A stretch of 63,986 nt of DNA, counting the filler. It is 6 parts of 6 records of this genome, joined end to end, with 100 filler letters (N's around TTAATTAATTAA, not from the genome) between each part and the next. Parts side by side here need not be neighbours in the genome. Positions count along the whole stretch, not along the records: positions 1 to 17,625 come from DRR723986_1813; 5 more parts are not named here. One strand, 5' to 3'. Made by a program: the position numbers and the translations under genes. The notes beneath the pieces are model-generated. The model saw only the letters and a list, made by a program, of their open reading frames with translations, did no database searches and was not told the DNA's origin. Positions within the stretch are counted from its first letter, which is position 1, and each line of letters opens with the position of its first letter. Shown here one piece after another: positions 1-17,625 of the stretch.

Positions 1-59
1 AGCTCGTCGTCTTTGGTGTCATAGGTGCCGATCACCAAGATGGTTTTATCTGCGCTCAT
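1..59 (-). CDS. Tm-1-like ATP-binding (UPF0261) family protein, 5' fragment running off the window
   Basis: Manual translation from ATG at 59 gives MSADKTILVIGTYDTKDDEL, matching the GT(Y/L)DTK N-terminus of UPF0261 proteins. ATGA overlap with the kinase stop at 56-59. Confidence 0.75.
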   Translation of the reverse strand, partial: MSADKTILVIGTYDTKDDE

Positions 60-1003
60 GCGGATCCTCCGTTTACAAACCCTTCAGCAAAAAACTGGGC
101 GGTGGCTATGGCACGCTGGCTGCGCGCAGCGGCGCCTGGTTCGCCCAGCCGGTCGATCACCCACCCCACATAGGTGAGCGCGCGCAACACCAGCATCAAA
201 TCCAGCAATTCGGGCGCCACCACGCGCCGCTGGGCGTAGCCCTGCAACAGCGCCGTGCGGATCTGGGGGTAATCGGGCGCATCGATCTGGCGCATCAAAA
301 ACGTGGCCAGCTCGAAATCGCGAAAGCCCCAGCCGCCATCGTCAAAATCGATCAGGTAAATTTGCCCGCCATCCACCAGAATATTTTCGGTAATGGCATC
401 AGCATGGATCAAGCCGTAATCCATATCGCCCGCGCGTTGCGCCAAGATCTGGCGCGCCTTGTCGCGGGCCTGCAGCAGCAGCTGGCGCTGTGGCGCGTCT
501 AAATCGGGATGCGCCCAATATGGCCCCCAAAGCGGGCGATCCCCCACCAGCCCCGCACCATCCCATGCGGGGCGCTGAAAACCCGCAGGCGGCGCCCATG
601 CATCGGATATATCATGCAGACGCGCCAGCAAGGCGCCCAATGCGCGGGCAAACCCGCAGCGGTCTGTCACCACCTCTAGCTGGCCTTGCGCCCCCAGCAT
701 CTGGCCCGGCAACCACGACAGCACATCGTATTGCACGCCCTCTATGGTTTCCACGTAATTGCCCCGGATCGAGCGTTCGGGCTGCGGCACAGCCAGGCCA
801 TGGGCGGCCAAATGCGCCATCCAATCGAGTTCCGACAAAAGCTGGGCATCGCTGCGATAGCCTGCCCGGTGTTGGCGCAGGGCAAAACGGCCCTTGGGGG
901 TATCGGCGCGAAAGACGATATTTTCACGCTGCGCGGCCAGCATAATATGGGCCGGATCCAACTGCCAAAGGGCGGCCGCGCGCAGGGGCAGGGGCGCGCT
1001 CAT
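56..1003 (-). CDS. APH/homoserine kinase type II-fold phosphotransferase (putative amino-alcohol kinase)
   Basis: 315 aa with catalytic IHADAITENIL (HxD) and LIDFDD motifs. ATGA-coupled to both neighbours. Confidence 0.85.
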   Translation of the reverse strand: MSAPLPLRAAALWQLDPAHIMLAAQRENIVFRADTPKGRFALRQHRAGYRSDAQLLSELDWMAHLAAHGLAVPQPERSIRGNYVETIEGVQYDVLSWLPGQMLGAQGQLEVVTDRCGFARALGALLARLHDISDAWAPPAGFQRPAWDGAGLVGDRPLWGPYWAHPDLDAPQRQLLLQARDKARQILAQRAGDMDYGLIHADAITENILVDGGQIYLIDFDDGGWGFRDFELATFLMRQIDAPDYPQIRTALLQGYAQRRVVAPELLDLMLVLRALTYVGWVIDRLGEPGAAARSQRAIATAQFFAEGFVNGGSA

Positions 1004-5284: not shown

Positions 5285-5292
5285 TTTGGCCC

Positions 5293-5823
5293 CTAGAAAT
5301 TCAGGATGAAAAAGCTGCGCAATCCACCGGGCAGGTATTCGTAAACCGCAGCACCCGGGATTTTGACCTGCAAGACAGCCTTAAACAAAACCACAACCAC
5401 CACCCCAAACAAGACACCGGCCCAAAGGATGGGCGCGCGGCGATAGCCCATGCGCCACAGCATCAAGGGCACAAAAGCCATTGTTACCGGCAAATAGCCA
5501 AGGCGCGGCACCAGCAACACATAGGCGATGAACCACAGCGCATATTCCAAGGGCTGGGCCCAAATGCGCGCCTCGTTCAGATCGGTGCGCTGCGGGCGGC
5601 GGCGCGGCAAGCGCCACAGGTGCAAGCCCCCAAACAGCACCATCCCCCCCAGCCCAATGGCGGGCCAGAACCGGGGTTGGGCAAAAAATGCCGTTTTCTT
5701 TACCCATTTTGTTTCTTGGCCTATCTGCGACAGCAAGACTGCCGAAAAAGCCAAAAAGCCAAGTGCAAAGATAGTTTGACCGCTGATGCGGCCAATGAAC
5801 CTGCGCTGTTCAGGCGTGCTCAT
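5293..5823 (-). CDS. tctB: TTT small membrane subunit TctB
   Basis: 176 aa, about 4 TM segments, PRFWP and LGY motifs, located between tctC and tctA. Confidence 0.8.
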   Translation of the reverse strand: MSTPEQRRFIGRISGQTIFALGFLAFSAVLLSQIGQETKWVKKTAFFAQPRFWPAIGLGGMVLFGGLHLWRLPRRRPQRTDLNEARIWAQPLEYALWFIAYVLLVPRLGYLPVTMAFVPLMLWRMGYRRAPILWAGVLFGVVVVVLFKAVLQVKIPGAAVYEYLPGGLRSFFILNF

Positions 5824-5850
5824 TTACCAAAGGCCCTACAAGATAGGCAT

Positions 5851-5872
5851 GGGCCGGGGCATGCCCCGGCCC
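5851..5872. repeat. Perfect 22-bp GC-rich palindrome between tctC and tctB (likely mRNA-stabilising hairpin)
   Basis: GGGCCGGGGCATGCCCCGGCCC is its own reverse complement; no U-tract follows. Confidence 0.6.
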
Positions 5873-5879
5873 TGCCGAA

Positions 5880-6821
5880 TTAGTTCAGCATGGCACCAAT
5901 GCGGGCCACGGTTTCAATGTCTTTGGCCACACGCGCGGCGCTGTCTTCGGCGCCCTGCCAATAGACCAGCGCGCCGGTTTCTTTGGCAATCGCCTGCGCC
6001 CGATCGCTGGTGACGGTTTTTTGCGCCACTTTGATGATCTTTTCGCGCACGTCTTGGGGGGTGTCTTTGGTCACAAACAGCCCGTTCCACAAGGCGATAT
6101 CAAGGTTTGCGTCTACCTCGCCCGCGGTGGGCGCATCAGGCACCAGCGAAATACGCTCGTCGGTGATCGACACCAGAACCTTTACCTGATCCAGGCAGGG
6201 CAGGATCAGCTGTAGGGTTGTGTTGATCACATCTGCATCGCCCGAGGCCAGCGTGTTGCAGTCCAGCGCATCAAAGGCGGCATCGCTGCCCCATTCAAAG
6301 CCTTTGGAAACCGCCAATGCCTTGGTCACTTGCGTGGGCGTCAGCGGGTCGCCGAAATGGCCCAGGGCCACGTCGTTGTTTTTGGCATAGGCGGCCAGCT
6401 CTTCCATGTTGGAATAGGGCGCATCACCCTTTGTGGCGATGACGAAAGGATAGGTCAGGAAAATACCCAGCGGGTCAAAGCGCGCGGGCGTCAGCTCGTC
6501 GATGCCAATCTGATGGCCCACAACCGGCACACCGATCACGAAAGAGCCGATGGTGTAGCCATCTGCCGGGGCCTGCGCCACCTCGATTGCACCGGGGAAG
6601 GGGCCGCCGCCGCCGCCGGGCTTGTTCACCACAGCTGCGGATACACCGTATTCGGCCTGGAAATCTTCGGCGATCATCCGGGTCAGGACATCTTCCAAAT
6701 CACCGGGGGGCCAGGGCACGATAAAGCTGACCGGCTTCTCGGGGTATTCAGCCACAGCAGCACCGCCCATGGCCGCCATTGCCACAGCCAGCGCACCGCC
6801 CAAAAGCGTATTGAGTTTCAT
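5880..6821 (-). CDS. tctC: TTT periplasmic substrate-binding protein TctC
   Basis: Signal peptide, YPEKPVSFIVPWPPG, VVNKPGGGG and ADGYT motifs. ATG at 6821 is preceded by a GGGAGA RBS. Confidence 0.88.
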   Translation of the reverse strand: MKLNTLLGGALAVAMAAMGGAAVAEYPEKPVSFIVPWPPGDLEDVLTRMIAEDFQAEYGVSAAVVNKPGGGGGPFPGAIEVAQAPADGYTIGSFVIGVPVVGHQIGIDELTPARFDPLGIFLTYPFVIATKGDAPYSNMEELAAYAKNNDVALGHFGDPLTPTQVTKALAVSKGFEWGSDAAFDALDCNTLASGDADVINTTLQLILPCLDQVKVLVSITDERISLVPDAPTAGEVDANLDIALWNGLFVTKDTPQDVREKIIKVAQKTVTSDRAQAIAKETGALVYWQGAEDSAARVAKDIETVARIGAMLN

Positions 6822-6852
6822 TTTCTGTCTCCCTGTTAACATTTTGCTGGTC

Positions 6853-6998: not shown

Positions 6999-7769
6999 AT
7001 GGGAACTGTCACTAAAGCATTGCAGCTGCTAACACTTTTTAGCCGCGCACAGCCTTTGATCGGCCTAAGCGACATGGCGCGCCTTGCGGGTATGAACAAG
7101 GCCAGCGTGCACCGGATGCTGGGCGAATTGCAGGCGGCAGGATTCGTGGAACAGGTGGGCAGCGGGCGGCAGTATCGGCTGGGCCCGGTCTATATGCGGC
7201 TGGCAGCATTGCGCGAACACGCGGTGCCGCTGCGCGATGTTGTGGGCGCGGTGCTGCAGCAGCTGTGCGATGAAACCCAGGAAACCGCGCATTTTTCGCT
7301 GCTGCAGGGCACGCAACTGGTGGCCACAACCCATGCCTATAGTCCCCATCATGGCACCCGCGTCACCATGGAAGACGCGCAAATTCTCACGCTGCATGGC
7401 ACCTCGTCGGGCCTGGCGGTGCTGGCCTATGCCAGCCCGGATTTTGCGCGCGCGGTGCTAGAGGCCCCGCTGCCGGCACGCACGAAACACACCATCACCA
7501 ACCCAGACGAGCTGCGCGCCAAGCTGGCGCAAGTGCAAAAAAATGGCATCGCCGAATCGATCAGCGGCTTTGAAGAAGATGTGCATTCCCACGCCGCGCC
7601 AATCTTTGATGCCCAGGGCCAGCCCTTGGGCGCCATCGCCGTGGCCGCCCCCGTGGCCCGTATGGATGACACGCTGCGCCAAACAGTGCGCCGCGCCACG
7701 CAAGAGGCCGGCCTGCACCTGACACGCCTATTGGGTGGGTTTCCGCCTGACACATACCCAACCCCTTGA
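6999..7769 (+). CDS. IclR family transcriptional regulator
   Basis: N-terminal HTH (TVTKALQLL...GMNKASVHRML); C-terminal effector domain with TSSG and AAPIFD. Confidence 0.92.
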   Translation: MGTVTKALQLLTLFSRAQPLIGLSDMARLAGMNKASVHRMLGELQAAGFVEQVGSGRQYRLGPVYMRLAALREHAVPLRDVVGAVLQQLCDETQETAHFSLLQGTQLVATTHAYSPHHGTRVTMEDAQILTLHGTSSGLAVLAYASPDFARAVLEAPLPARTKHTITNPDELRAKLAQVQKNGIAESISGFEEDVHSHAAPIFDAQGQPLGAIAVAAPVARMDDTLRQTVRRATQEAGLHLTRLLGGFPPDTYPTP

Positions 7770-7789
7770 AACCCCACGGAGACAAACGG

Positions 7790-9142
7790 ATGAAAGACGG
7801 CAACTTTTTGAAAGAACACAATGCCCGCTCCATGTGGCACCCCATGGCCCACCCTGCCGATAGCCTGGCCAACCCGCCCACCATCATCACCCGCGCCCAA
7901 GGCGTGCGCATCACCGACGTGGATGGCCACGAGGTGGTTGACGCCGTAGGCGGGCTTTGGAACGTGAATTTGGGCTTTTCCTGTCAGCCTGTGAAAGATG
8001 CCATTGCCGCCCAGCTGGATGTGCTGCCCTATTATTCTACCTTCCGCGGCACCAGCAATGACGCGGTGATCGAACTGTCAGAGGGCCTGCGCGATTTCTT
8101 TGCCCCCGATGGGCTGGTGCGTGCCTTTTACACCTCGGGCGGGTCGGATTCGGTGGAAACCGCGCTGCGGCTTGCCCGGCAATACCACAAAATCCGCGGC
8201 GAGGCGGGGCGGGTTAAGTTCCTCAGCCTGAAAAAGGGCTATCACGGCACGCATTTCGGCGGCGCCAGTGTGAACGGAAACGCCAATTTCCGCACCCAAT
8301 ACGAGCCGCTGTTGCCGGGCTGTCACCATATTCCGGCGCCCTATACCTATCGCAACCCGTTCAATGAAACCGATCCCGCAAAGCTGGCCGCGCTGTGCCT
8401 GTCGGCGCTGGAAGACGAGATCGCCTTTCAAGGTGCGGGCACCATTGCCGCGATGATCATGGAGCCGGTCTTGGGCGCGGGCGGCGTGATACCGCCCCAT
8501 GAAAGCTTTATGCCCGGCGTGCGTGCGATCTGCGATCGCCACGGCATTTTGCTGATTGCCGACGAGGTGATCACCGCCTTTGGCCGCACCGGTAGCTGGA
8601 CAGGCAGCCGCCACTGGGGCGTGCAACCCGATTTGATGTGCACCGCCAAGGCCATTACCAACGGCTATTTCCCGTTTGGCGCTGTGATGATTTCAGGCGC
8701 CGTGGCAGAGGTGTTTGAAAACGATCGCAGCGGCGCGGCGGCCATTGGCCACGGCTATACCTATTCAGGCCACCCGGTGGGGGCGGCGGCCGCCATTGCG
8801 TGCCTGGCCGAAACGCAGCGGCTGAACGTGCCAGAAAACGCCGCCGCCCGCGGGGCGCAACTGTTTGCGGGGCTGCAGGGGCTGCAGGAAAAATACAGCG
8901 TCATCGGCGATGTGCGTGGCGGCCATGGGCTGATGTGCGCGCTAGAGCTGGTGGCCGATCGCGGCACAAAAGCGCCCATCGACAAAGCCGTGATCGGGCG
9001 CGTGCAAGAGGTGGCCTATCAGGCAGGCGCGATGGTGCGGGTCTCGGGGAATAATATCATCATGTCGCCGCCGCTGGTGCTGAGCGCCCAGGATGTGCAG
9101 GTGATTTTGGCCGCCCTAGACGCAGGGCTGGCCACAACATAA
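7790..9142 (+). CDS. Class III (omega-amine/polyamine:pyruvate-type) aminotransferase
   Basis: DAVGGLWNVNLG, SGGSDSVE, YHG, ADEVITAFGRTG and TAKAIT motifs. ATG at 7790 follows GGAG. Confidence 0.88.
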   Translation: MKDGNFLKEHNARSMWHPMAHPADSLANPPTIITRAQGVRITDVDGHEVVDAVGGLWNVNLGFSCQPVKDAIAAQLDVLPYYSTFRGTSNDAVIELSEGLRDFFAPDGLVRAFYTSGGSDSVETALRLARQYHKIRGEAGRVKFLSLKKGYHGTHFGGASVNGNANFRTQYEPLLPGCHHIPAPYTYRNPFNETDPAKLAALCLSALEDEIAFQGAGTIAAMIMEPVLGAGGVIPPHESFMPGVRAICDRHGILLIADEVITAFGRTGSWTGSRHWGVQPDLMCTAKAITNGYFPFGAVMISGAVAEVFENDRSGAAAIGHGYTYSGHPVGAAAAIACLAETQRLNVPENAAARGAQLFAGLQGLQEKYSVIGDVRGGHGLMCALELVADRGTKAPIDKAVIGRVQEVAYQAGAMVRVSGNNIIMSPPLVLSAQDVQVILAALDAGLATT

Positions 9143-9150
9143 GGCCAAGC

Positions 9151-9180
9151 AAAAAGCCGGTGGCGCCTAGGCGCCGCCGG
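9151..9180 (-). terminator. Putative intrinsic terminator at the ferredoxin stop
   Basis: Minus strand CCGGCGGCGCC-TA-GGCGCCACCGG followed by CTTTTT, between convergent genes. Confidence 0.5.
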
Positions 9181-9478
9181 GCACCTGCAACACCAGCCCA
9201 TCCAGCGCTGGGTCGGCGATGATCTGGCACGAAAGCCGCGATTGCGCGGTGCGCGGGGCCTCGACCGCATCGAGCATGGCGTCTTCGAAATCGTCCAGCG
9301 CGGGCAAGGCGGCCGCGGATTGGACGTAGACGTGACAGGTGGCGCAGCTGAGATTGCCGCCGCATTCCCCCAAAACCCCAGGCACATTATGCGACACGGC
9401 CGCCTCCATCAAATTGGTGCCGGCGGGAACGGTTGCGCTGATTTCGCGGCCATCGGGCAAAACCCATGTGACATTCAT
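9167..9478 (-). CDS. 2Fe-2S ferredoxin (putidaredoxin/adrenodoxin type)
   Basis: GECGGNLSCATCHV and SRLSCQ; 103 aa. Confidence 0.92.
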   Translation of the reverse strand: MNVTWVLPDGREISATVPAGTNLMEAAVSHNVPGVLGECGGNLSCATCHVYVQSAAALPALDDFEDAMLDAVEAPRTAQSRLSCQIIADPALDGLVLQVPGGA

Positions 9479-9532
9479 TGATCTATCCTTTCAAAGTGCT
9501 GCGCAGGTGGCGGGCGGCCATGCCTGCGGCGC

Positions 9533-9553
9533 GAGTATTTTTAGCAAGATGAA
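9533..9553. repeat. Short intergenic repeat, copy 1
   Basis: GAGTATTTTTAGCAAGATGAA; near-identical copy at 13625-13646. Confidence 0.6.
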
Positions 9554-9563
9554 GGGGAAGGGG

Positions 9564-10853
9564 TTAAAGGAACCAAACGTAGAAATCGCGCAGCTGATCG
9601 CCCTCGAGATCTTTGGTTTTCTTTACCTCTTTTTCCTTCATGAAGATGTGGTTGTCGCACAATTCCTGGCCCACAGCCTGTTGCAGGGCGGTATCGGCGC
9701 GCAGATCTGACATGGCCTCTTTCAGGCTGATGGCGGCGCTGTCTTTGGCATCCCATTTCTCGAACCCATCGCCGGTTTCGATGGGGCCCAGCGTGTAGCT
9801 ATTTTGAACGCCCAGACGCGCCGCCTGCAAGACCGCGGCAACCGCGATATAGGGGTTTGACGAGGCATCGGCCATGCGGTGTTCAAGCCGCGCCTTGGCG
9901 CCACCCTCGGTAGAGATGCGGGTGGTGACATTGCGGTGATCGCCGCCCCAGTTGCACAAAAACCCCGAGAGCGAGCCGGGCTGCAGGCGCTGATAGCTGT
10001 TGGCGGTGGGCGCCACCAACCCTGCCAAGCCGCGGTGATGGTGCATCAGCCCCGCGATACACCCACGGGCCAGATCATTCATGTGATCGGGGCCGCCCTT
10101 TGGCCCCGAGGACAGGGCATTGGCGCCTTGGGCGTCGGTAAAGGAGAAATTGATATGCATCCCCGAGCCACCCGCCTGGGCGATGGGCTTGGGCAAAAAG
10201 GTTAAAACAACGCCATGTTCCAACGCAATTTCCCGCGCCATCAGGCGAAACAGCACGATGGCATCCACCGCCTTGAGCGCATCATCGAAGGTGAGGGTGT
10301 ATTCAAATTGCGGGCTGTCATATTCGGTGGTGATCATATCGAGGGAAAAGCCCAGCTCGCAGGCTTTTTCCCAAATGGCATCGTTAAACCGCAGCGGATC
10401 GGAAAAGGGGCCGGTGCCATAGACATGGGCGCCGGGCGTGTCATAGGGGGTGAGGCGGCCGTTTTCATCGGCGACAAGCGCGAAAGCCTCGAGCTCGATT
10501 CCCACTTTGGGCGACAGGCCCATGGCCTGCCAATCGGCCACGGCACGTTTGAGCGCGCCACGCCCGCAGAGCGGCAGCGGCTGGCCTTCGGTATCGTAGA
10601 GATCGCCGATCACGATCTTGGTGTTGCGATCCCAGCTGTCGCGGATGTTTTCGGCCTGCCAGTGCAATTCCATATCAGGCAGGCCCTGCATCATCATCGC
10701 ACCGGGCGCATCGAGCAGGTCTTTATCGTAATGCACACCGAAATTAGACCGGCAAAACCGGGTGGTGGCATCGGTGATTTTAGAGGCGGGCAGGTATTTG
10801 CCGCGTAAGATGGACAAATGATCGCAAAACAGTGCGCGCAGGCGTTCGGGCAT
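9564..10853 (-). CDS. Glutamine synthetase-like gamma-glutamyl-amine ligase (PuuA/IpuC type)
   Basis: GIELE, EYDSPQFE, KPIAQAGGSGMHINFS, NSYQRL and RLEHR motifs. True start is ATG 10853 with an AGGAGA RBS; the ORF-track extension overlaps the P450. Confidence 0.85.
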   Translation of the reverse strand: MPERLRALFCDHLSILRGKYLPASKITDATTRFCRSNFGVHYDKDLLDAPGAMMMQGLPDMELHWQAENIRDSWDRNTKIVIGDLYDTEGQPLPLCGRGALKRAVADWQAMGLSPKVGIELEAFALVADENGRLTPYDTPGAHVYGTGPFSDPLRFNDAIWEKACELGFSLDMITTEYDSPQFEYTLTFDDALKAVDAIVLFRLMAREIALEHGVVLTFLPKPIAQAGGSGMHINFSFTDAQGANALSSGPKGGPDHMNDLARGCIAGLMHHHRGLAGLVAPTANSYQRLQPGSLSGFLCNWGGDHRNVTTRISTEGGAKARLEHRMADASSNPYIAVAAVLQAARLGVQNSYTLGPIETGDGFEKWDAKDSAAISLKEAMSDLRADTALQQAVGQELCDNHIFMKEKEVKKTKDLEGDQLRDFYVWFL

Positions 10854-10909
10854 GGGGATCTCCTGTTGGGCGGCCAAGATCTGATGTCTTGATCCGGGAA
10901 AAGGGCCGA

Positions 10910-12166
10910 TTAGGCCAGCGTGACACGGACGGGCAAAGATTTCAGCCCGCCCACAAAATTCGAGCGCAAAAACTGATAGGGGCCTGCCGGTTCGATCGCG
11001 GTGATGCGGCGGGCCAGCTCCTGGAACAGCACCCGCACCTCGAGCCGGGCCAGCCACATGCCAAGGCACACATGCGGGCCGCCCTGGCCAAAGGACATAT
11101 GGCGATTGGGGCTGCGCGCCAGATCTACCTGGAAGGGGTTTTCAAACACGGTTTCATCGCGATTGGCCGAGGAAAACCAGAAAAGCACCTTGTCGCCTTC
11201 GCGGATGGTGCGGCCGTGGGCGGTGACATCTTGGGTGGCGGTGCGGCGGAAATAAAGCGCAGGCGTGGCCCAACGAATGATTTCATCTGGCGCGGTTTCC
11301 CAAATATCGCCCTGTTGCATCTGCGCCAACAGCCCCGGCTGATGGGCCAGCGCCTGAATACCTGCGGCGATGGAATAGCGCGTGGTATCGTTACCTGCCG
11401 CCACCAGAAGACAGAAAAAATTGCGAAACTCTTCTTCGGTGATGCGGCTGCCATCTTTGCCAGGTTCGCGAATGAGATGCAGCACGCCTGACGTGTCGCC
11501 GGCGGATTCCTTCTGCGCCATCAGCTCTTTAGCGTATTGATAAAGCTCGGCCCCGGCGGGCGAGTTGAACGGCATCATGCGAAATTCATCGGTGGTCATG
11601 CGATCGAGCACATGATCGGTAAAATCAGGGTCGGTGTTGGCGATCAGCGCGTCGCCCTTTTCCACCAGCCACGGCAAATCGGCGTCGGGCGTGCCAATGA
11701 TACGGCCCAGCATGCGCATGGGCAATTGCCGCGCGATGGTGCGTGTGGCGTCAAACTCGTGCGATTGCAGGACTTCATCCAGAATTTCGGTGCAAAGGGT
11801 GCGGATTTCGGCCTCGAATTGATCGATCACGCCTTTGGAAAAGGCGCGCGCCACCTTGATGCGGGTTTGCATATGCTCGGGCGGATCGGTTTCCTGAAAG
11901 GTGCGGCGCGCCAGATATTCCTCGTAGGTCTGGTCCTCCATCCGGATACCGCGCGCCGATGAAAACACGGCAAAATTGCGGTTCATCTCGGTGATATCGG
12001 CATGGCGGGTGATCGACCAAAACCCCTGCCCATCGGCGTAGTCTGTCCAATGCACCGGGTCTTCGCGGCGCAGCCGGGCGAATGTGTTATGCGGGGCGCC
12101 GGCCACAAAAGTATCGTGGCTGGTCAGATCGGCATAGCCATCGTCATTTGGAACCCAGACTGTCAT
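10910..12166 (-). CDS. Cytochrome P450
   Basis: Heme motif FGQGGPHVCLG, I-helix AAGNDTT, ExxR (EIIR), DPPEH; 418 aa. Confidence 0.95.
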   Translation of the reverse strand: MTVWVPNDDGYADLTSHDTFVAGAPHNTFARLRREDPVHWTDYADGQGFWSITRHADITEMNRNFAVFSSARGIRMEDQTYEEYLARRTFQETDPPEHMQTRIKVARAFSKGVIDQFEAEIRTLCTEILDEVLQSHEFDATRTIARQLPMRMLGRIIGTPDADLPWLVEKGDALIANTDPDFTDHVLDRMTTDEFRMMPFNSPAGAELYQYAKELMAQKESAGDTSGVLHLIREPGKDGSRITEEEFRNFFCLLVAAGNDTTRYSIAAGIQALAHQPGLLAQMQQGDIWETAPDEIIRWATPALYFRRTATQDVTAHGRTIREGDKVLFWFSSANRDETVFENPFQVDLARSPNRHMSFGQGGPHVCLGMWLARLEVRVLFQELARRITAIEPAGPYQFLRSNFVGGLKSLPVRVTLA

Positions 12167-12232
12167 ATTCTACCCTTTCCTTAACTTGTTTTGTATATTA
12201 TATGATGCTATAAATATGTAAAGGGAAATAGC

Positions 12233-12940
12233 ATGCGCTTGGCGATCTTGATGGCAAACACGGATGTGTCCGACTTTGCGCGCGGGCATCCAGATGATGG
12301 GCAAAAGTTTTCAGCCCTGATTGCCACTGTGCGCCCCAAATGGGATTGCACAGTATTCTTGGCACGCGACGGTGAATTTCCCGAAAATTTAGATGCGTTT
12401 GATGGGTTTCTTGTAACGGGCAGCCCTGCATCGGTGCATGATGGGCATGGCTGGATTGGCCAGCTAGAGGGGATGCTGCGCGCGATTGTTGCGCAAAAGC
12501 GCCCCTTGTTTGGCGCCTGTTTTGGCCATCAGCTGATTGCACAGGCGCTGGGGGGCACGATTGGGCCAAACCCGGGCGGCTGGGTGCTGGGCCGCGAAAC
12601 CACACACATAACCGCGCGCCCCCCCTACATGGCGGCGCTGCCAGATGTGCTGAACCTATACGCCGCCCATGTCGAGCAAATCACCACCCCACCCCCGGGT
12701 ATCGAGGTGCTATGCGGCAATGCGGCCTGCCCGATTGGCGGCTTTGCCATGGGGCGCCATGTATATACCACACAATATCACCCAGAAATGCAGCCCGGGT
12801 TTATTGCCGCGCTTACCCAGCATCTCGAGGGCAAACTGCCGCCAGAGGTGATTGAACAGGCGCGCGCCTCGTTGCAACAACAGGCCGACACGATGGCCTT
12901 TGCCGAAAGCATTGCCGCGTTTTTTGAGCAGGCGCGCTAA
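12233..12940 (+). CDS. Class I glutamine amidotransferase-like hydrolase (putative gamma-glutamyl-amide hydrolase)
   Basis: TGSPASV, nucleophile elbow GACFGHQ and QYHPE triad. Confidence 0.88.
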   Translation: MRLAILMANTDVSDFARGHPDDGQKFSALIATVRPKWDCTVFLARDGEFPENLDAFDGFLVTGSPASVHDGHGWIGQLEGMLRAIVAQKRPLFGACFGHQLIAQALGGTIGPNPGGWVLGRETTHITARPPYMAALPDVLNLYAAHVEQITTPPPGIEVLCGNAACPIGGFAMGRHVYTTQYHPEMQPGFIAALTQHLEGKLPPEVIEQARASLQQQADTMAFAESIAAFFEQAR

Positions 12941-13587
12941 TCAAGAACGGCCAGCAGATCCATGGCGGTCAGCTGATCAAACTGCACATGCGCAGCCATG
13001 GCCTGTTCGGCCGCATCGGGATCGCGCGCCAAGATCAGCGTGGTGATCTGGCGATGTTCGCGTGCCGAACTGCCGATCACGCCTTTGTAGTGATAGCGCG
13101 CGCGATAATAGGCCATCAATTTCCGCGCATTGGTTTTGATCATGTCCAGCAAAAACGGGTTGCAGGCGGCATCGGCCACTGCCGCATGATAGGCCATATT
13201 CAGCTGATAATAGGCATCGGGGCGGGCATCGCCATGGGTGGCGGCATGGGCCTCGCAGGCGGCGGTTGCGGCCTCGATACGGGCGGCATGCCCGGCCGAT
13301 AGCCGCCGCGCCGCCAGCCCTGCGGCCTGACCTTCAAGCTTGGCGTGCACCTCGAGAATGGCCAAAAATTCTGCCAGCGAGGGGCGAAAAACCACCGCCC
13401 CCTTGCGTGGCAACCGTTGGATAAGCCCGGCCGCTTCCAGCTGGATAAACGCCTCGCGCACAGGCGTGCGCGAGACGCCATGCGCCTCGATCAGCGCGCC
13501 CTCTTCGATCAGCTTGCCCGGTGTCAGGCTGCCATCTTCGATGGCACCAAGAATGGCCGCGATGATGATATCCGTCTGTCCTGCCAA
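12937..13587 (-). CDS. GntR family (FCD) transcriptional regulator
   Basis: wHTH GVSRTPVREA; FCD domain with N..YH and EH motifs. Confidence 0.9.
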   Translation of the reverse strand: MAGQTDIIIAAILGAIEDGSLTPGKLIEEGALIEAHGVSRTPVREAFIQLEAAGLIQRLPRKGAVVFRPSLAEFLAILEVHAKLEGQAAGLAARRLSAGHAARIEAATAACEAHAATHGDARPDAYYQLNMAYHAAVADAACNPFLLDMIKTNARKLMAYYRARYHYKGVIGSSAREHRQITTLILARDPDAAEQAMAAHVQFDQLTAMDLLAVLD

Positions 13588-13691: not shown

Positions 13692-14465
13692 CTAGCCACG
13701 GCTTTGCCACAGCGCCACCGTATCGCGGGCGGCGCGGGCCAGCATCACCACATCGATGCCCACCGCCAGAAATTGTGCGCCCCATTTAGCATAGGTTTGG
13801 GCGGTTTCATCATCAACGGCCAGAATGCCCGCAGCCTTTGGGCTGGCCGCGATTGTGGCCAGGGCCTGCTGGATAGCCGCGGCCACGGGTGCTGCGGCAG
13901 ATTGCCCGGGATAGCCCAGATCGGCGGCCAGATCGGCGGGGCCGATGAACACGCCATCTACCCCCTCGACCGCCAGGATGGCATCGAGGTTTTCCAGCCC
14001 CGCGCGGGTTTCCACCTGCACCAGCAGGCACATTTGATCATTCGCGGTTGTGACATAATCGGGAATGGCCGAAAATTCAGAGGCGCGCGCCAAGGCCGCC
14101 CCTGCCCCGCGCACGCCCTGTGGCGGGTAGCGCATGGCGCGCACCAGATCCTGGGCTTGTTCCGCGCTTTCGACCATCGGGATCAGCAAGGTTTGCGCCC
14201 CGGCATCAAGCACCTGTTTGATCGCCCAGGTTTCGCCCATAGGCAGGCGCACCACCGGGTGGCTATGCGCCCCTTTCATCGCCACAAGCTGCGCCATGAT
14301 GGTGCGCAGATCGTTTGGGGCGTGTTCGCCATCGATCACCAGCCAGTCAAAGCCCGCGCTGGCCAGCACCTCGGTTGGATAGGGGTCGGCAAACCCGGCC
14401 CAGCAGCCGATCAGCCGCTGGCCTGTGGCAAGGCGGTGCTTGAAACTGTTTACTGGGGCAGGCAT
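13692..14465 (-). CDS. HpcH/HpaI class II pyruvate aldolase
   Basis: GFDWLVIDGEHAPND, VRAMRYPPQGVRG, QVET and DGVFIGPADL motifs. Confidence 0.9.
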   Translation of the reverse strand: MPAPVNSFKHRLATGQRLIGCWAGFADPYPTEVLASAGFDWLVIDGEHAPNDLRTIMAQLVAMKGAHSHPVVRLPMGETWAIKQVLDAGAQTLLIPMVESAEQAQDLVRAMRYPPQGVRGAGAALARASEFSAIPDYVTTANDQMCLLVQVETRAGLENLDAILAVEGVDGVFIGPADLAADLGYPGQSAAAPVAAAIQQALATIAASPKAAGILAVDDETAQTYAKWGAQFLAVGIDVVMLARAARDTVALWQSRG

Positions 14466-14468: not shown

Positions 14469-15887
14469 TTATCCCTTTCGGATTTTATCGGCGATCTCGG
14501 TGATCACGTCATAGGCGGTGTTGATGTCGGCTGCGGTGCAATCGAATTGCCCGGCTTGGAAGCGGATAACAAAGCGGTCGTCAACGCGGGTTTGGGTAAG
14601 GTAAATGCGGCCATCGTTGTTGATCTGCGTGATCAGGTCAAGCGTGGCCTCTTCCGCCGACATGCCCGCGGGGCAAAAGCGGAAGGTGAAAAGCGACAAG
14701 ATGGGTTGGCTGACAATCTCGAAATCGGGCACGGCCTGCAGCCGCTGGGCCAGCGATTGGGCCCATGTGACATGGTTGCGGATCATCTGGCGCAGCCCCT
14801 CAAGCCCGTAGGCGCGCAGCAGAAACCACAGCTTCAGCGCCCGAAACCGCCGCCCCAGCGGCACGGACCATTCGGAATAGTTGATCACCCCATCGGCGCC
14901 ATGGGTTTTCAGATATTCGGGCTGGATGGCCAAGGTGCGGGTTAAATCCGCGGGCGAGCGGATAAAATGCGCCGATAGGTCAAACTGCGTGCCAAGCCAT
15001 TTATGCGGGTTGAACACAACACTATCGGCCATCTCGACCCCGGCCCAGAGGCTGCGGAACTCGGGGCAAATCATGGCGCTGCCGGCCCAGGCGGCATCGA
15101 CATGGGTATAAAGGCCAAAGCGCCCTGCGATGGTGCAGAGCGCCGCCACATCATCGCAGGCGCCCATGCCGGTGGCGCCGGTGCAGGCGATCACCCCGGC
15201 GGGGCGGTGGCCTGCGGCCAAATCGGCCTCGATCGCGGCGGTCAGCGCCGCTGGGCACATGGCGCGCATGGGGCCGGGGGCCAGGGGCACGCGCACCAGG
15301 TTTTCCTGCCCGATGCCTGCCACCCAAATGGCGCGGTCAATAGAGCTGTGCGCCTCGGGCGAGCAATAGATGCGCAGGCGGGGCTGGCCCGAAAGGCCGG
15401 CTGCATTGCCCTGCCAGTTCAACGCGCGTTCGCGCATGGTCAGCACCGCCGCCAGCGTTGCCGAGGAGGCGCTATCTTGGATCACACCGGCAAATGTTTC
15501 AGGCAGGCCCACCGCGTGGCGTAGCCATTCCATCATGCGGGTTTCCATCTCGGTTGCGGCGGGCGAGGTTTGCCACAGCATGCATTGCGGCGCCATCACC
15601 GTGGCCAGCTGATCGGCCAGAACCGCCGCGGGGGATGCGTTTGATGGGAAATAGGCAAAAAACCGGGGGTGTTGCCAATGGGTGATGCCGGGCATCACGA
15701 TACGCTCGAAATCTTCGATCACTTGCGCAATGGGTTGGGGCGCCTCGGGCGGGGTTGCAGGCAGGGCGGCCAAGGTTTCACCGGGCTGCACCTGTGCGCG
15801 CACGGGCCTGTCGCGCAGGCCGTTATGATAGCTTGCGGCCCAATCGGCCAGCCAATGGCCCCATTTTGGAAAATCGCTCCAGCGCAT
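14469..15887 (-). CDS. Aromatic L-amino acid decarboxylase (group II PLP decarboxylase)
   Basis: PGITHWQHPRFFAYFP, SPAATEME, HVDAAWAG, NPHKW and LGRRFRALKLW motifs. Start at ATG 15887. Confidence 0.9.
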   Translation of the reverse strand: MRWSDFPKWGHWLADWAASYHNGLRDRPVRAQVQPGETLAALPATPPEAPQPIAQVIEDFERIVMPGITHWQHPRFFAYFPSNASPAAVLADQLATVMAPQCMLWQTSPAATEMETRMMEWLRHAVGLPETFAGVIQDSASSATLAAVLTMRERALNWQGNAAGLSGQPRLRIYCSPEAHSSIDRAIWVAGIGQENLVRVPLAPGPMRAMCPAALTAAIEADLAAGHRPAGVIACTGATGMGACDDVAALCTIAGRFGLYTHVDAAWAGSAMICPEFRSLWAGVEMADSVVFNPHKWLGTQFDLSAHFIRSPADLTRTLAIQPEYLKTHGADGVINYSEWSVPLGRRFRALKLWFLLRAYGLEGLRQMIRNHVTWAQSLAQRLQAVPDFEIVSQPILSLFTFRFCPAGMSAEEATLDLITQINNDGRIYLTQTRVDDRFVIRFQAGQFDCTAADINTAYDVITEIADKIRKG

Positions 15888-15974
15888 TGCACCGCCCCCT
15901 TGATCATGATGTTTAACATGACAAGTAAACCAGCCGGGCCAGATGGGCAAGCCCGGCCTTGGGGTGCGGCGCCA

Positions 15975-16181: not shown

Positions 16182-17625
16182 TTAGCCCTGTGCCGTTGCG
16201 CGCAGCAGGGCTGCGCATATGTCGGTTTCATTATAGCTGGGCCAGCGGGCCGCCACATGCTGGTCGGGGCGCAGCAGATAGACGGCCGTGGGCGCATCGC
16301 CCAAATAGCGCTGGGCCAAAGCGGGATTGGTTTCGGGATCGCAAGACAGGGTCAGCGGCCGCACGGCAATGCCATTGATCTGCAGCGCCTCGGGCGCGGG
16401 TGTATTGATGCACAAAATCACGAAATCATTGCCCAGCTGCGGCAGCAAATAGCCATTTTCTAGCGCCACATCGGGGCATGGGGCACCAGGGCGGGTGCGT
16501 GCTGGCCCTTGGGGCAGCGCATCTGCACTGTTCAAAACCGAGCCATCATAGGTGCAGGGCAAAGACAGACGCCCCGAATTCACCAAGGGGCGGGCAAAGG
16601 CGAAATGTTCAGACAGATCCAGCACCGCATCGCGGAAAATACGGCTTTGCTGGGATTTTGGGGTGATGAAATCGGTCGAGCGGGACGAGTTCAAGATATT
16701 CTCGTCGGCGCCATAGACCCGCTCGCTATCGTAGCTGTCCAGCAGCGCGGGTGGCGCTTTGCCATCGATCACCAGCTTTAATTTCCACACCAGGTTATCT
16801 GCATCTTGCAGGCCCGAATTTGCGCCGCGCGCCCCAAAGGGGCTGACCTGATGGGCGCTGTCGCCTGCAAAAACCACGCGGTTGTGGCGGAATTTCTCCA
16901 TTCGGCGGCATTGGAACGTGTAGATCGATACCCATTCCAGCTGGAAATTCACATCCTCGCCCAGCATGGCCTTGAGCCGTGGTATCACCCTTTCGGGCTG
17001 TTTTTCCTGCTCTTTGTCAATATCCCAACCCAGCTGCAGATCGATGCGCCACACACCATCGGGCTGTTTGTGCAGTAAGGCCGATTGGCCCTTGTTAAAG
17101 GGGGGATCGAACCAAAACCACCGTTCGGTGGGGAATTCAGCATCCATGATCACATCAGCGATCAAGAAGTTATCTTCGAAAACGCGGCCCACAAAATCGA
17201 GGCCCATCATCGCGCGAATGGGGCTGCCGGCACCATCGCAGGCAATCAGCCAATCGGCCTGCAAATCATAGGGGCCTTCGGGCGTATCGATGCGCAGCGC
17301 CACGTGATCGCCCCGGTCGTCTACCTGCAACACCTTGTTTTGGCCGCGCAATTCGATGGGGGCGCCTTGGCTTTGCAATTGCTGCGCACGCTGCACCAGA
17401 TAGGTTTCGAAATAATATTGCTGCAGGTTGATGAAGGCCGGGCGCTGGTGGCCATCTTCGGGGAGCAGGTTGAATTCATAGACCTTGCGATCGCCAAAGA
17501 ACACTTTGCCAAGGTTCCAGACCACGCCCTTATCGACCATCTGCTGCCCGCAGCCCAAACGATCGAGGATTTCCAGCTGGCGCTTGGCAAAGCAAATCGC
17601 GCGGCTGCCAAAGCTGACCTTGTCG
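16182..17625 (-). CDS. FAD-dependent aromatic monooxygenase (MhpA/PheA-like), 5'-truncated at the contig end
   Basis: Frame is open to the spacer (GSRAICFAKR); ACDGAGS, FAGDSAHQVSPFGARGANSG and LLRPDQHV motifs. Confidence 0.88.

What the first reader, a model, noticed from the sequence alone, without database searches (positions are those of the whole stretch)
9167..13587. Gamma-glutamyl-protect / P450-oxidise / deprotect module for an unknown amine
Seen: P450, GS-like ligase and 2Fe-2S ferredoxin are co-oriented, with a divergent class I amidotransferase and a GntR regulator. Known: the Pseudomonas ipu isopropylamine pathway uses the same parts (IpuC gamma-glutamylamide synthetase, P450 system, IpuF hydrolase) and yields an amino alcohol. 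The mycobacterial pip/mor cyclic-amine loci pair a GntR regulator, P450, ferredoxin and a GS-like gene. Inference: this is a Roseobacter-type pathway for an alkyl, cyclic or arylalkyl amine, substrate unassigned. No ferredoxin reductase is in this contig, so one must act in trans.
Basis: partly seen in the sequence, partly recalled or inferred. Interest (0 to 1): 0.72.

Follow-up and report, generated by a model that had tools for sequence, protein, structure and literature searches.

The report
P450 amine-breakdown cluster of Roseobacters
A gene set conserved in marine Roseobacter bacteria probably tags an amine such as dopamine, tyramine or phenylethylamine with glutamate, oxidises it with a P450 and passes it to ring-breaking pathways; this route is untested and would be a new way to consume such amines.

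Summary
On the minus strand lie a 2Fe-2S ferredoxin (9167-9478), a glutamine-synthetase-like ligase (9564-10853) and a P450 (10910-12166). A class-I amidotransferase (12233-12940) is divergent, and a GntR/FCD regulator (12937-13587) follows. In the 80 best related genome loci, the amidotransferase and the ligase each flank the P450 in 79 of 80; each single miss is a contig end. P450 relatives down to 38% identity, in Sphingomonadales and Actinomycetota, also sit beside a GS-like gene (10 of 10 examined). The ligase is not a true glutamine synthetase: it scores far below the curated cut-offs and its catalytic flap Glu is replaced by an invariant Leu.

An aromatic-amino-acid decarboxylase and an HpaI aldolase lie just upstream. 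In other lineages the same module abuts complete homoprotocatechuate operons (9/80), homogentisate genes (19-23/80) or paaABCD (12/80). All three are arylacetate routes.

Best reading: a gamma-glutamylation/P450 route turning arylethylamines into arylacetates. It stands where amine oxidase and aldehyde dehydrogenase stand in E. coli. Substrate and P450 chemistry are inferred, not shown. This is a new variant of a known kind.

The parts
9167..9478 (-). 2Fe-2S ferredoxin, presumed electron donor to the P450
   Evidence: Pfam Fer2 7.6e-10. The four Cys of CGGxxSCxTCH...C are invariant in 59/59 sequences. Present in 39/50 full-flank loci.
9564..10853 (-). Glutamine-synthetase-like ligase (429 aa), presumed glutamate-amine ligase
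   Evidence: Gln-synt_C 4e-70. Below every NCBIfam GS and PuuA cut-off. Start ATG 10853 follows AGGAG. Metal-binding Glu residues, GSGMH and RxExR are kept; the flap Glu is Leu in 77/77. 28.4% identity to E. coli PuuA.
10910..12166 (-). Cytochrome P450 (418 aa) of the CYP125/124/126 neighbourhood
   Evidence: PDB best hit CYP125MRCA 4e-92, then CYP126 1.7e-66. Cys367, NDTT and ExxR are invariant in 81/81. Orthologues are 76-96% identical in the 80 loci.
12167..12232 (.). 66-nt divergent control region with a conserved AT-rich element
   Evidence: Promoter-like TTTACA-16-TAATAT at 12222-12195 on the minus strand. CATATTTA and ATATACA blocks are kept in at least 80% of 13 aligned rows from different genera (9 further loci were dropped because my start-finder failed).
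12233..12940 (+). Class-I glutamine-amidotransferase-fold hydrolase, presumed gamma-glutamyl-amide or glutamine hydrolase
   Evidence: GATase 3.6e-15 and Peptidase_C26 25.2 bits. Best PDB hit is plant gamma-glutamyl peptidase 1, 4.7e-18. Cys96 is invariant in 80/80; His183 and Glu185 are kept in 79/80 rows (the other row has a gap). No match to E. coli PuuD at E<=1e-5.
12937..13587 (-). GntR/FCD transcription regulator
   Evidence: Pfam GntR plus FCD. Present in 47/50 full-flank loci.
13692..14465 (-). HpaI-type 4-hydroxy-2-oxoheptanedioate aldolase
   Evidence: PDB 7v8t 5.7e-87. NCBIfam HpaI 351.3 bits, just under the 368.8 cut-off. Present in 26/50 full-flank loci.
14469..15950 (-). Eukaryote-type aromatic L-amino-acid (DOPA) decarboxylase, 3 nt upstream of HpaI
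   Evidence: PDB DOPA decarboxylase 7xin 1.6e-117 and human AADC 1.4e-97. NPHKW, AHSS and PEYLK align with the human enzyme. Present in 20/50 full-flank loci.
16182..17625 (-). 5'-truncated FAD-dependent aromatic-ring monooxygenase (remnant)
   Evidence: NCBIfam PRK08132, 679.9 bits, matching only profile positions 80-549. Residues 1-60 of the L054 orthologue have no counterpart. Collinearity with L001 ends at 17625.
7766..9142 (+). Class-III omega-aminotransferase
   Evidence: NCBIfam PRK07481, 746.7 bits, above the 575 cut-off. PDB omega-transaminase 5lh9 1.7e-138. Present in 33/50 full-flank loci, in several arrangements.
6999..7769 (+). IclR-family regulator
   Evidence: Pfam IclR_C and HTH_IclR. 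Nearest NCBIfam model is the PcaR/PcaU/PobR family, below cut-off. Present in 33/50.
3665..6842 (-). TctC (5880-6842), TctB (5293-5823) and TctA (3665-5284), a tripartite tricarboxylate-type uptake system
   Evidence: Pfam TctC, TctB, TctA. TctC's best solved relative is BugD, 5.1e-27. Present in 31-32/50.
2316..3800 (-). Aldehyde dehydrogenase (start uncertain; the ORF overlaps tctA)
   Evidence: Aldedh 2.3e-160. Best NCBIfam model is PuuC, 525.8 bits, below the 850 cut-off. 47.5% identity to E. coli PuuC and 39.3% to FeaB. Present in 28/50, an undercount because it lies near the flank end.
56..2319 (-). APH-type kinase (56-1003) and second class-III aminotransferase-like gene (1000-2319); membership in the pathway is uncertain
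   Evidence: Pfam APH 5.1e-30 and Aminotran_3 2.8e-77. The latter matches the C-terminal part (positions 587-1012) of the fused NCBIfam model PRK06148. AT3b is found in 16/80 loci.

Best explanation
The five genes form a GntR-controlled catabolic module that consumes an amine through a gamma-glutamyl amide.

Proposed steps:
1. The GS-like enzyme uses ATP to join glutamate to the amine.
2. The P450 oxidises the gamma-glutamyl amide. Electrons come from the adjacent ferredoxin and from a reductase encoded elsewhere.
3. The amidotransferase-fold hydrolase splits a gamma-glutamyl amide.

The amine is most likely an arylethylamine (dopamine, tyramine or 2-phenylethylamine). It would be made by the adjacent aromatic-amino-acid decarboxylase or taken up. 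The end product would be the matching arylacetate. That is then degraded by the homoprotocatechuate, homogentisate or phenylacetyl-CoA genes that flank the module in different lineages.

Two versions of the P450 step fit the data.
- (A, slightly favoured) The P450 hydroxylates the carbon next to the amide nitrogen. The product falls apart into arylacetaldehyde plus glutamine. The aldehyde dehydrogenase makes the acid, and the hydrolase regenerates glutamate.
- (B') The P450 hydroxylates the ring of gamma-glutamyl-tyramine. The hydrolase deprotects it, and the omega-aminotransferase and aldehyde dehydrogenase finish the job.

Shown here: gene identities, catalytic motifs, synteny and contexts. 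Inferred: the ligase's amine, the P450's substrate and regiochemistry, and the order of steps.
For: The trio is coupled.
- The amidotransferase and the GS-like gene each flank the P450 in 79/80 loci, and in 50/50 loci with full flanks.
- P450 hits H1-H10 in the plasmid collection (78-38% identity; Roseobacters, Novosphingobium, Sagittula, Streptomyces, Embleya) all have an adjacent GS-like gene, 10/10.

The ligase is not a glutamine synthetase.
- It falls below all curated cut-offs.
- The flap Glu is replaced by an invariant Leu, while the metal and ATP motifs are kept.

The hydrolase looks active.
- Cys96 is invariant (80/80) and His183 and Glu185 are kept in 79/80 rows, the other row having a gap.
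- Its nearest solved structure is a gamma-glutamyl peptidase.

The context is aromatic.
- An AADC (7xin 1.6e-117) with the decarboxylase markers aligned lies 3 nt from an HpaI aldolase, with GntR 104 nt further downstream on the same strand.
- In Oricola (L046) the AADC sits inside a complete operon hpaF-E-D(Fe)-D-AADC-G-like-H-I, divergent from GntR. HpaE, both HpaD types, HpaH and HpaI all score above the equivalog cut-offs.
- Shimia thalassica (L062) has hpaE-D(Fe)-D-G-like-H-I-GntR, co-directional.
- HpaD is found in 9/80 loci; HmgA, FAH and the FAD monooxygenase in 19, 21 and 23/80; paaABCD in 12/80, 0.1-6 kb upstream of GntR. Together, 49/80 loci carry one of these sets.
- The distant clusters repeat the theme. 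S. canus has ferredoxin, a reductase, ALDH, an annotated 3,4-dihydroxyphenylacetate 2,3-dioxygenase and an FAH-family gene beside GS-P450. Novosphingobium EMRT-2 has P450-GS-ALDH beside a ring dioxygenase and FAH- and ADC-family genes.

Precedents.
- In E. coli K-12, feaR-feaB-tynA lie directly beside paaZ and paaA-K.

For version A specifically: the clusters without an amidotransferase within the fetched flanks.
Against: - There is no biochemical, genetic or expression evidence for any step. Nine full-text searches were run; none of the papers whose passages I read, and no title or abstract among the listings, describes this cluster.
- The P450's nearest solved relatives hydroxylate terminal methyl groups of sterols and lipids, not arylalkyl amides.
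- The aldehyde dehydrogenase is closer to PuuC (47.5%) than to phenylacetaldehyde dehydrogenase FeaB (39.3%).
- The associated transporter is of a carboxylate-uptake type, so the imported compound may not be an amine.
- The adjacent omega-aminotransferase could by itself deaminate arylethylamines, which would make an ATP-costing route look redundant.
- 31/80 loci show none of the three aromatic sets within 10 kb. Several of these are short contigs.
- All 80 loci come from related Alphaproteobacteria, so the counts are not independent events.
- In this window the FAD monooxygenase is truncated, and no hpaD/E/H, hmgA or paa genes are present.
- Only the best 80 of 551 stretches were seen.
Confidence: 0.55

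Rival explanations
1. An ipu- or Puu-like route for an aliphatic amine. A small alkylamine is gamma-glutamylated. The P450 hydroxylates or omega-oxidises its alkyl chain. The PuuC-like dehydrogenase makes the gamma-glutamyl amino acid, the hydrolase releases it, and the omega-aminotransferase deaminates it. The P450 would stand in for the PuuB oxidase.
For: - All Puu enzyme types except PuuB lie within 10 kb: GS-like, ALDH (47.5% identical to PuuC), a GATase-fold hydrolase and a class-III aminotransferase. The enzyme list of the Puu/Pau pathway was read in the Figure 1 legend of PMC10606097.
- The P450's nearest solved relatives are terminal-methyl hydroxylases: CYP125, CYP124, CYP153.
- The AT3-IclR-Tct-ALDH block stays next to the trio in at least four arrangements.
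- A Mesorhizobium loti plasmid has a 34%-identical P450, an APC permease, a GS-family gene and a PuuD-family hydrolase.
Against: - It leaves unexplained why three different arylacetate pathways and an aromatic-amino-acid decarboxylase flank the module in different lineages.
- It also leaves unexplained why distant GS-P450 pairs sit with ring-cleavage genes.
- The GS-like protein scores 170 against the 650 cut-off of PuuA.
- The hydrolase does not match PuuD at E<=1e-5.
Confidence: 0.2
2. The amine stays gamma-glutamylated through ring cleavage. Gamma-glutamyl-tyramine is ring-hydroxylated by the P450, and the gamma-glutamyl-dopamine is cleaved by the Hpa-type enzymes. HpaI then releases pyruvate plus gamma-glutamyl-gamma-aminobutyraldehyde. 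That product enters a Puu-like lower pathway of ALDH, hydrolase and aminotransferase.
For: - It gives every conserved gene a role: HpaI, the PuuC-like ALDH, the hydrolase and the omega-aminotransferase.
- Carbon bookkeeping of the textbook Hpa pathway predicts exactly PuuC's substrate. This is my own inference.
- An AADC is embedded in an hpa operon.
Against: - The Hpa proteins score above the equivalog cut-offs built on enzymes acting on the free acid, so the ordinary substrate is the simpler assumption.
- Most Roseobacter loci, including this window, have only HpaI nearby.
- The paa- and hmg-type neighbourhoods do not fit this reading.
Confidence: 0.08
3. The P450 does not act on a gamma-glutamyl amide. 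It oxidises or dealkylates a free aromatic or lipid compound. The GS-like enzyme and the hydrolase only capture or release the amine or ammonia that results.
For: Genomics cannot order the steps. The P450 family resembles lipid and sterol hydroxylases.
Against: - The tight pairing of this P450 clade with GS-like genes across phyla, 10/10 down to 38% identity, is what a shared intermediate would give.
- In the aniline system, glutamylation comes first (passages read). For the ipu system this order is recalled only.
Confidence: 0.08
4. The cluster is biosynthetic. It makes a hydroxylated amine or a gamma-glutamyl amide as a signal or secondary metabolite.
For: A decarboxylase, aldolase and aminotransferase could in principle build amino alcohols. 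An FkbM-type methyltransferase is inserted in 14/80 loci.
Against: - The neighbours are uptake transporters, GntR and IclR regulators, aldehyde dehydrogenases and ring-cleavage operons.
- No synthetase, exporter or tailoring set recurs.
Confidence: 0.05
5. The GS-like gene is an ordinary ammonia-assimilating glutamine synthetase, and the clustering is incidental.
For: The best solved matches are true glutamine synthetases, at 1.9e-38.
Against: - Scores are far below the GlnA, GlnT and GlnII cut-offs.
- The flap Glu is lost in 77/77.
- Synteny with the P450 is invariant.
Confidence: 0.02

Closest known systems
Isopropylamine (ipu) pathway of Pseudomonas sp. KIE171, via gamma-glutamyl-isopropylamide to L-alaninol
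   Same: The logic is the same: a GS-like ligase, an oxygenation of the gamma-glutamyl amide, and a gamma-glutamyl hydrolase. That gamma-glutamyl-isopropylamide belongs to this pathway was read in passages of PMC10832564. That ipu clusters occur on Arthrobacter plasmids was read in PMC1713258.
   Different: The gene-by-gene make-up of ipu (which Ipu protein is the P450, the hydrolase and so on) is recalled only. The primary paper is not held and no Ipu sequence could be fetched, so orthology is untested. Here the context is aromatic, no reductase is in cis, and the P450 may cleave the C-N bond rather than make a stable alcohol.
Puu/Pau gamma-glutamylation pathway for putrescine (E. coli PuuA-E)
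   Same: It has a GS-like ligase, an aldehyde dehydrogenase (47.5% identical to PuuC), a gamma-glutamyl hydrolase of the amidotransferase fold, a class-III aminotransferase, a dedicated regulator and a transporter (enzyme list in PMC10606097).
   Different: There is no PuuB-type flavin oxidase in the window; a P450 plus ferredoxin takes its place. The ligase is only 28.4% identical to PuuA and scores 170 against the 650 cut-off. The hydrolase is not of the PuuD subfamily.
Aniline dioxygenase systems (AtdA/Tdn type)
   Same: A GS-like protein and a GAT-like protein are encoded beside an oxygenase that acts on the gamma-glutamyl amide of an aromatic amine, with ring-cleavage genes nearby (passages).
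   Different: The oxygenase here is a P450 with a ferredoxin, not a two-subunit Rieske dioxygenase. No such genes are in the window. The presumed substrate is an arylethylamine, not an arylamine.
TynA/FeaB beside paa in E. coli K-12, and the tyramine/dopamine '3,4-dihydroxyphenylacetic acid catabolon' of Pseudomonas putida U
   Same: The position in the pathway and in the genome is the same: an arylethylamine-to-arylacetate step encoded next to the arylacetate degradation genes (E. coli layout). For the P. putida work only the title in a reference list was seen.
   Different: No copper amine oxidase homologue is in the window. The step would be cytoplasmic, ATP-dependent and P450-dependent, and would pass the nitrogen through a glutamyl amide.
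CYP125/CYP124/CYP126 P450s of actinobacteria
   Same: They are the best solved sequence relatives, aligned over the full length with all heme-thiolate motifs.
   Different: Natural members match at only 1e-54 to 1e-66. No sterol or lipid catabolic genes are nearby. This clade is defined instead by an adjacent GS-like gene.

Membership tests
True glutamine synthetase (GlnA type I, GlnT type III, GlnII) | Score above the curated NCBIfam equivalog cut-off | tested here: not met
   GlnA 166 against 429; type III 196.8 against 469.6; GlnII 22.3 against 500.
True glutamine synthetase (GlnA type I, GlnT type III, GlnII) | Catalytic flap glutamate in the PGYEAP motif (its role is recalled from the GS literature) | tested here: not met
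   Aligned to PGSLSG against five solved GS chains. Leu is at that position in 77/77 orthologues.
True glutamine synthetase (GlnA type I, GlnT type III, GlnII) | Metal, glutamate and ATP site motifs of the GS fold | tested here: met
   ExE, E...E, GSGMH and RxExR are aligned and invariant. The protein is therefore a GS-fold ligase, but not an ammonia-type one.
Gamma-glutamyl-amine ligases of the GS fold (PuuA, GmaS, IpuC, AtdA1/TdnQ) | Equivalog-level similarity to a characterised member | tested here: not met
   PuuA model 170 against 650. 28.4% identity to E. coli PuuA. Solved GmaS and PA5508 chains match at only 6e-33 to 3e-29.
Gamma-glutamyl-amine ligases of the GS fold (PuuA, GmaS, IpuC, AtdA1/TdnQ) | Encoded beside a gamma-glutamyl hydrolase of the amidotransferase fold and an oxidising enzyme | tested here: met
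   79/80 loci and 50/50 full-flank loci.
Gamma-glutamyl-amine ligases of the GS fold (PuuA, GmaS, IpuC, AtdA1/TdnQ) | ATP-dependent ligation of glutamate to an organic amine | not testable with these tools
   Needs an enzyme assay.
Ipu-type pathway | Complete P450 electron chain (P450, ferredoxin, ferredoxin reductase) in the cluster (the make-up of ipu is recalled) | tested here: not met
   P450 and ferredoxin are present. No reductase is in the window or, for the putidaredoxin-reductase type, in the 80 loci.
Ipu-type pathway | Orthology of the ligase, P450 and hydrolase to IpuC, the Ipu P450 and IpuF | not tested
   No Ipu sequence or paper could be obtained.
Puu pathway | PuuB-type FAD oxidase acting on the gamma-glutamyl amine | tested here: not met
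   tblastn with E. coli PuuB found nothing in the window at E<=1e-5.
Puu pathway | PuuC-type gamma-glutamyl-aminoaldehyde dehydrogenase | tested here: inconclusive
   PuuC is the best NCBIfam model, but at 525.8 against 850. 47.5% identity to PuuC.
Aniline dioxygenase (AtdA/Tdn) | Two-subunit Rieske oxygenase plus reductase beside the GS-like and GAT-like genes | tested here: not met
   No Rieske or ring-hydroxylating subunits among the window ORFs. A paralogous Sagittula cluster does have them next to GS-GATase-P450.
CYP125 family (steroid C26-monooxygenases) | More than 40% identity to named natural members, and a sterol-catabolic context (the naming rule is recalled) | tested here: inconclusive
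   Natural CYP125 chains match at 7e-62 to 1e-53, and only the reconstructed ancestor reaches 4e-92. Identity was not computed because the chains are not held as sequences. No sterol genes are nearby.
Aromatic L-amino-acid decarboxylase (group II PLP) | PLP lysine, active-site His and catalytic-loop Tyr that separate decarboxylases from aldehyde synthases (the markers are recalled) | tested here: met
   NPHKW, AHSS and PEYLK align with the human AADC chains 9hrh and 3rbf; NPHKW and AHSS also align in 7xin and 6eei, where the loop motif differs.
Homoprotocatechuate (Hpa) meta-cleavage pathway | HpaD, HpaE, HpaH and HpaI above the equivalog cut-offs in one operon | tested here: met
   Met in related loci, not in the window. 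L046: HpaE 786>638, HpaD_Fe 448>316, HpaD 424>321, HpaH 392>351, HpaI 379>369. L062 is similar, with HpaI at 338. In the window only HpaI is present, at 351.3 against 368.8.

The most novel reading that the evidence does not exclude
The glutamyl tag is not removed before ring cleavage. Gamma-glutamyl-tyramine is hydroxylated by the P450 to gamma-glutamyl-dopamine, and Hpa-type enzymes open the ring of the protected amine. HpaI then releases pyruvate plus gamma-glutamyl-gamma-aminobutyraldehyde. That product flows into a Puu-like lower pathway: the PuuC-like dehydrogenase, the amidotransferase-fold hydrolase and the omega-aminotransferase. This would fuse two textbook pathways and explain why all these genes travel together.
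Probability: 0.08. Interest if true: 0.85.

Novelty: new variant of a known kind. Interest (0 to 1): 0.66.

Why it matters
Roseobacters are major consumers of algal and animal metabolites in coastal seas. Close relatives of this P450 were found in 551 stretches of a one-genome-per-species collection, including model strains such as Ruegeria pomeroyi, Ruegeria sp. TM1040 and Tritonibacter mobilis. None of the papers found by the nine full-text searches describes the module.

If the reading is right, it defines a third way for bacteria to deaminate biogenic arylethylamines, besides amine oxidases/dehydrogenases and transaminases. This way is cytoplasmic, ATP-driven and P450-dependent, and the nitrogen may pass directly into glutamine.

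It would also assign a substrate class to a P450 clade that spans Alphaproteobacteria and Actinomycetota and is recognisable by its GS-like neighbour. The clade would give biocatalysis P450s that act on gamma-glutamyl amides.

The finding is directly testable in genetically tractable strains.

Tried and rejected
Literature.
- Nine full-text searches found nothing on this cluster, on a P450 acting on gamma-glutamyl amides in Roseobacters, or on gamma-glutamyl-tyramine/dopamine in bacterial catabolism. One search was swamped by unrelated words containing 'ipuc'.
- The primary ipu paper is not held under either id.
- An accession recalled for the Arthrobacter ipu plasmid is not in the plasmid collection.
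- An Arthrobacter citreus plasmid hit to the ligase turned out to be a GS-formamidase-permease cluster, not ipu.
- The 'ipuC' of the Roseobacter litoralis proteome paper is only an annotation label.

Gene calling.
- Greedy longest-ORF calling in the related loci failed. Antisense ORFs of these GC-rich genomes displaced real genes, and only 63/80 P450s were recovered. I replaced it with stop-to-stop ORFs scored by phmmer.

Regulatory signals.
- An inverted-repeat search in the P450/amidotransferase and GntR upstream regions found nothing.
- The promoter scan as a whole is not above shuffled expectation, 3 found against 4.5. Only the position and conservation of one site are used.

Other.
- TctC's solved relatives are too distant to name a ligand.
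- The ALDH comparison with FeaB and PuuC does not decide between models.
- Structure prediction, fold search, complex prediction, the representative-protein search and the atlas search were not run. No coordinates are returned, so the P450 pocket could not have been measured, and none would name the substrate.

Not checked.
- The metagenome and viral collections (closed).
- 471 of the 551 related stretches.
- Plasmid hits H11, H14-H16 and everything below H17.
- Supplementary tables of Roseobacter transcriptome or fitness studies, which may hold expression or fitness data for the orthologues.

Full report
**What is there.**
- A 103-aa 2Fe-2S ferredoxin (9167-9478, minus strand).
- A glutamine-synthetase-fold protein.
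- A 418-aa P450 (10910-12166, minus).
- A 235-aa class-I amidotransferase-fold protein (12233-12940, plus).
- A GntR/FCD regulator (12937-13587, minus).

The long GS-like ORF (9564-11069) overlaps the P450. An ATG at 10853 preceded by AGGAG gives a 429-aa protein starting 56 nt after the P450 stop. The P450, ligase and ferredoxin form one co-directional unit. The amidotransferase diverges from the P450 across only 66 nt. No ferredoxin reductase of four types is detectable anywhere in the window.

**Is it more than chance?** The P450 has orthologues of 76-96% identity in many Roseobacter genera and a few Hyphomicrobiales. Of 551 related stretches in the one-genome-per-species collection, the best 80 were fetched with up to 10 kb on each side. 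Using stop-to-stop ORFs scored with phmmer against the window's proteins:
- The amidotransferase and the GS-like gene each flank the P450 in 79 of 80 loci. The two misses are contig ends.
- Among the 50 loci with full flanks, the amidotransferase and ligase are present in 50, GntR in 47 and the ferredoxin in 39.

The pairing reaches far beyond Roseobacters.
- In the plasmid collection, the ten best P450 hits (78-38% identity) all have a GS-like gene next to the P450. They are Tritonibacter, Ruegeria sp. TM1040, Novosphingobium (three strains), Sagittula, Streptomyces canus and two Embleya.
- A 37% hit (Nonomuraea) and a 35% hit (Rhodococcus) have none.
- A 34% hit in Mesorhizobium loti has one 2.7 kb away, with a PuuD-family hydrolase.

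**The parts look functional and specialised.**
- Ligase. It keeps the metal-, glutamate- and ATP-site motifs of glutamine synthetases. It scores far below every curated GS or PuuA cut-off. In alignments with five solved glutamine synthetases, their flap motif PGYEAP reads PGSLSG, and the Leu replacing the flap Glu is invariant in 77/77 orthologues. That this Glu is needed for ammonia chemistry is recalled from the GS literature.
- Amidotransferase. Cys96 is invariant (80/80), and His183 and Glu185 are kept in 79/80 rows, the other row having a gap. Its best solved relative is a plant gamma-glutamyl peptidase.
- P450. The heme cysteine, the NDTT acid-alcohol stretch and ExxR are invariant in 81/81. 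Its nearest solved relatives are a reconstructed CYP125 ancestor (4e-92), then CYP126, CYP268A2, CYP124 and CYP125.
- Control region. The 66-nt divergent region carries a promoter-like TTTACA-16-TAATAT. AT-rich blocks are conserved across genera in 13 aligned rows; nine loci were dropped there because my start-finder failed.

- Directly upstream, on the GntR strand, lie an HpaI-type aldolase (13692-14465; 5.7e-87 to a solved HpaI) and, 3 nt before it, a eukaryote-type aromatic-amino-acid decarboxylase (14469-15950). The decarboxylase matches DOPA decarboxylase at 1.6e-117, with the PLP lysine, active-site His and catalytic-loop Tyr aligned.
- Next comes a FAD aromatic monooxygenase that is 5'-truncated in this genome.
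- On the other side lie a class-III omega-aminotransferase, an IclR regulator, a TctCBA uptake system, an aldehyde dehydrogenase (47.5% identical to E. coli PuuC and 39.3% to FeaB) and a kinase/aminotransferase-like pair.
- The aminotransferase-IclR-Tct-ALDH block is next to the trio in about two thirds of full-flank loci, and in at least four different arrangements. That argues for a functional tie.

**The decisive pattern.** What lies upstream of GntR differs between lineages.
- In 9/80 loci it is a homoprotocatechuate meta-cleavage operon. In Oricola (L046) the order is hpaF-hpaE-hpaD(Fe)-hpaD-AADC-hpaG-like-hpaH-hpaI, with the decarboxylase inside the operon. HpaE, both HpaD types, HpaH and HpaI all score above the NCBIfam equivalog cut-offs. 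In Shimia thalassica (L062) hpaE to hpaI run straight into GntR.
- In 19-23/80 loci it is hmgA, a fumarylacetoacetase and the FAD monooxygenase, followed by AADC and HpaI.
- In 12/80 loci it is paaABCD(E), 0.1-6 kb from GntR, as also annotated in Ruegeria sp. TM1040.
- Together, 49/80 loci carry one of these sets. Several of the remaining 31 are short contigs.
- The distant clusters echo this. S. canus has a ferredoxin, a reductase, an ALDH, an annotated 3,4-dihydroxyphenylacetate 2,3-dioxygenase and FAH- and ADC-family genes beside GS-P450. Novosphingobium EMRT-2 has P450-GS-ALDH beside a ring dioxygenase. Sagittula has AraC-GS-GATase-P450 beside a Rieske dioxygenase.

All three Roseobacter neighbour sets degrade arylacetic acids. 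Those acids are what arylethylamines become after deamination and oxidation. E. coli K-12 shows the same genomic logic: feaR-feaB-tynA sit directly beside the paa genes.

**How it most likely works.** I conclude that the module converts arylethylamines into arylacetates through a gamma-glutamyl amide. The amines would be products of the adjacent decarboxylase, or dopamine, tyramine or phenylethylamine taken up from outside.

The order 'ligase first, oxygenase on the amide' is inferred from the aniline dioxygenase systems (passages) and from the ipu pathway (passages; details recalled). Two versions remain open.
- Version A. The P450 hydroxylates the carbon next to the amide nitrogen, giving aldehyde plus glutamine. 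This needs only the ligase, P450 and an ALDH. It fits the clusters that lack an amidotransferase.
- Version B'. It gives roles to the always-present hydrolase, the aminotransferase and the ALDH.
- A bolder reading, ring cleavage of the still-protected amine, would make HpaI release exactly PuuC's substrate. It is kept as the novel case.

**Against my reading.**
- There are no experimental data of any kind.
- The P450's relatives are aliphatic hydroxylases.
- The ALDH is PuuC-like.
- The transporter is a carboxylate type.
- The aminotransferase alone could deaminate such amines.
- The 80 loci are related, so the counts overstate independence.
- This window itself lacks hpaD/E/H, hmgA and paa genes.

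**Comparison and novelty.** The module works like the ipu, Puu and aniline-dioxygenase systems, all of which route an amine through a gamma-glutamyl amide. It is a member of none.
- It fails the PuuA, PuuB and PuuD tests.
- It has no Rieske oxygenase.
- Orthology to Ipu proteins could not be tested.

None of the papers returned by the nine full-text searches, as far as I read their listings and passages, describes this cluster or a gamma-glutamyl/P450 route for arylethylamines. I rate it a new variant of a known kind, of good but not exceptional interest: widespread, ecologically placed and readily testable.

Noticed in passing
window 16182-17800: The FAD-dependent aromatic monooxygenase lacks about 60 N-terminal residues. 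Collinearity with the closest locus L001 (89.5% nucleotide identity) stops at 17625. L001 continues with a fumarylacetoacetase and hmgA, whereas the window continues with ung and trpD. This looks like a rearrangement that removed the homogentisate genes here.
   Followed up: yes
window 24400-58000: G+C falls from about 0.62-0.64 to 0.45-0.49 between about 31.4 and 52 kb, and rises again to 0.61-0.66 after 58 kb. The low-GC stretch holds housekeeping genes (RNase E, accB/accC, class II ribonucleotide reductase, thiG). No tRNA gene is in the window. A mosaic or a chimeric assembly is possible.
   Followed up: partly
window 56-2319: An APH-type kinase and a class-III aminotransferase-like gene lie side by side. 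The latter matches the C-terminal part of the fused NCBIfam model PRK06148. This may be a kinase/phospho-lyase-like pair for an amino alcohol (that function is recalled). The aminotransferase-like gene recurs beside tctA/ALDH in 16/80 loci.
   Followed up: partly
related loci, e.g. L049 19386-20639; TM1040 locus L081 24820-26052: A UPF0261 / Tm-1-like ATP-binding gene of unknown function follows the aldehyde dehydrogenase in 23/80 loci.
   Followed up: no
related loci, e.g. L041 14305-15096; L081 16856-17602: An FkbM-type methyltransferase gene is inserted between the GS-like gene and the aminotransferase in 14/80 loci, with or without the ferredoxin.
   Followed up: no
related loci, e.g. L057 7532-8371: A cyclase-family gene (Pfam PF04199, the family of kynurenine formamidase and isatin hydrolase; that membership is recalled) sits just upstream of GntR in 12/80 loci, mostly Ruegeria and relatives.
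   Followed up: no
L083 5013-5819, L082 14838-15641, L085 6417-7541, L088 6127-6933: Acetoacetate-decarboxylase-family genes accompany GS-like genes in four actinobacterial or sphingomonad clusters, with or without the P450. Their role in gamma-glutamylation pathways is unexplained.
   Followed up: no
L046 4074-5933 and L062 4065-6013: Two different types of 3,4-dihydroxyphenylacetate 2,3-dioxygenase (NCBIfam HpaD_Fe and HpaD), both above cut-off, lie side by side in the same hpa operon.
   Followed up: no
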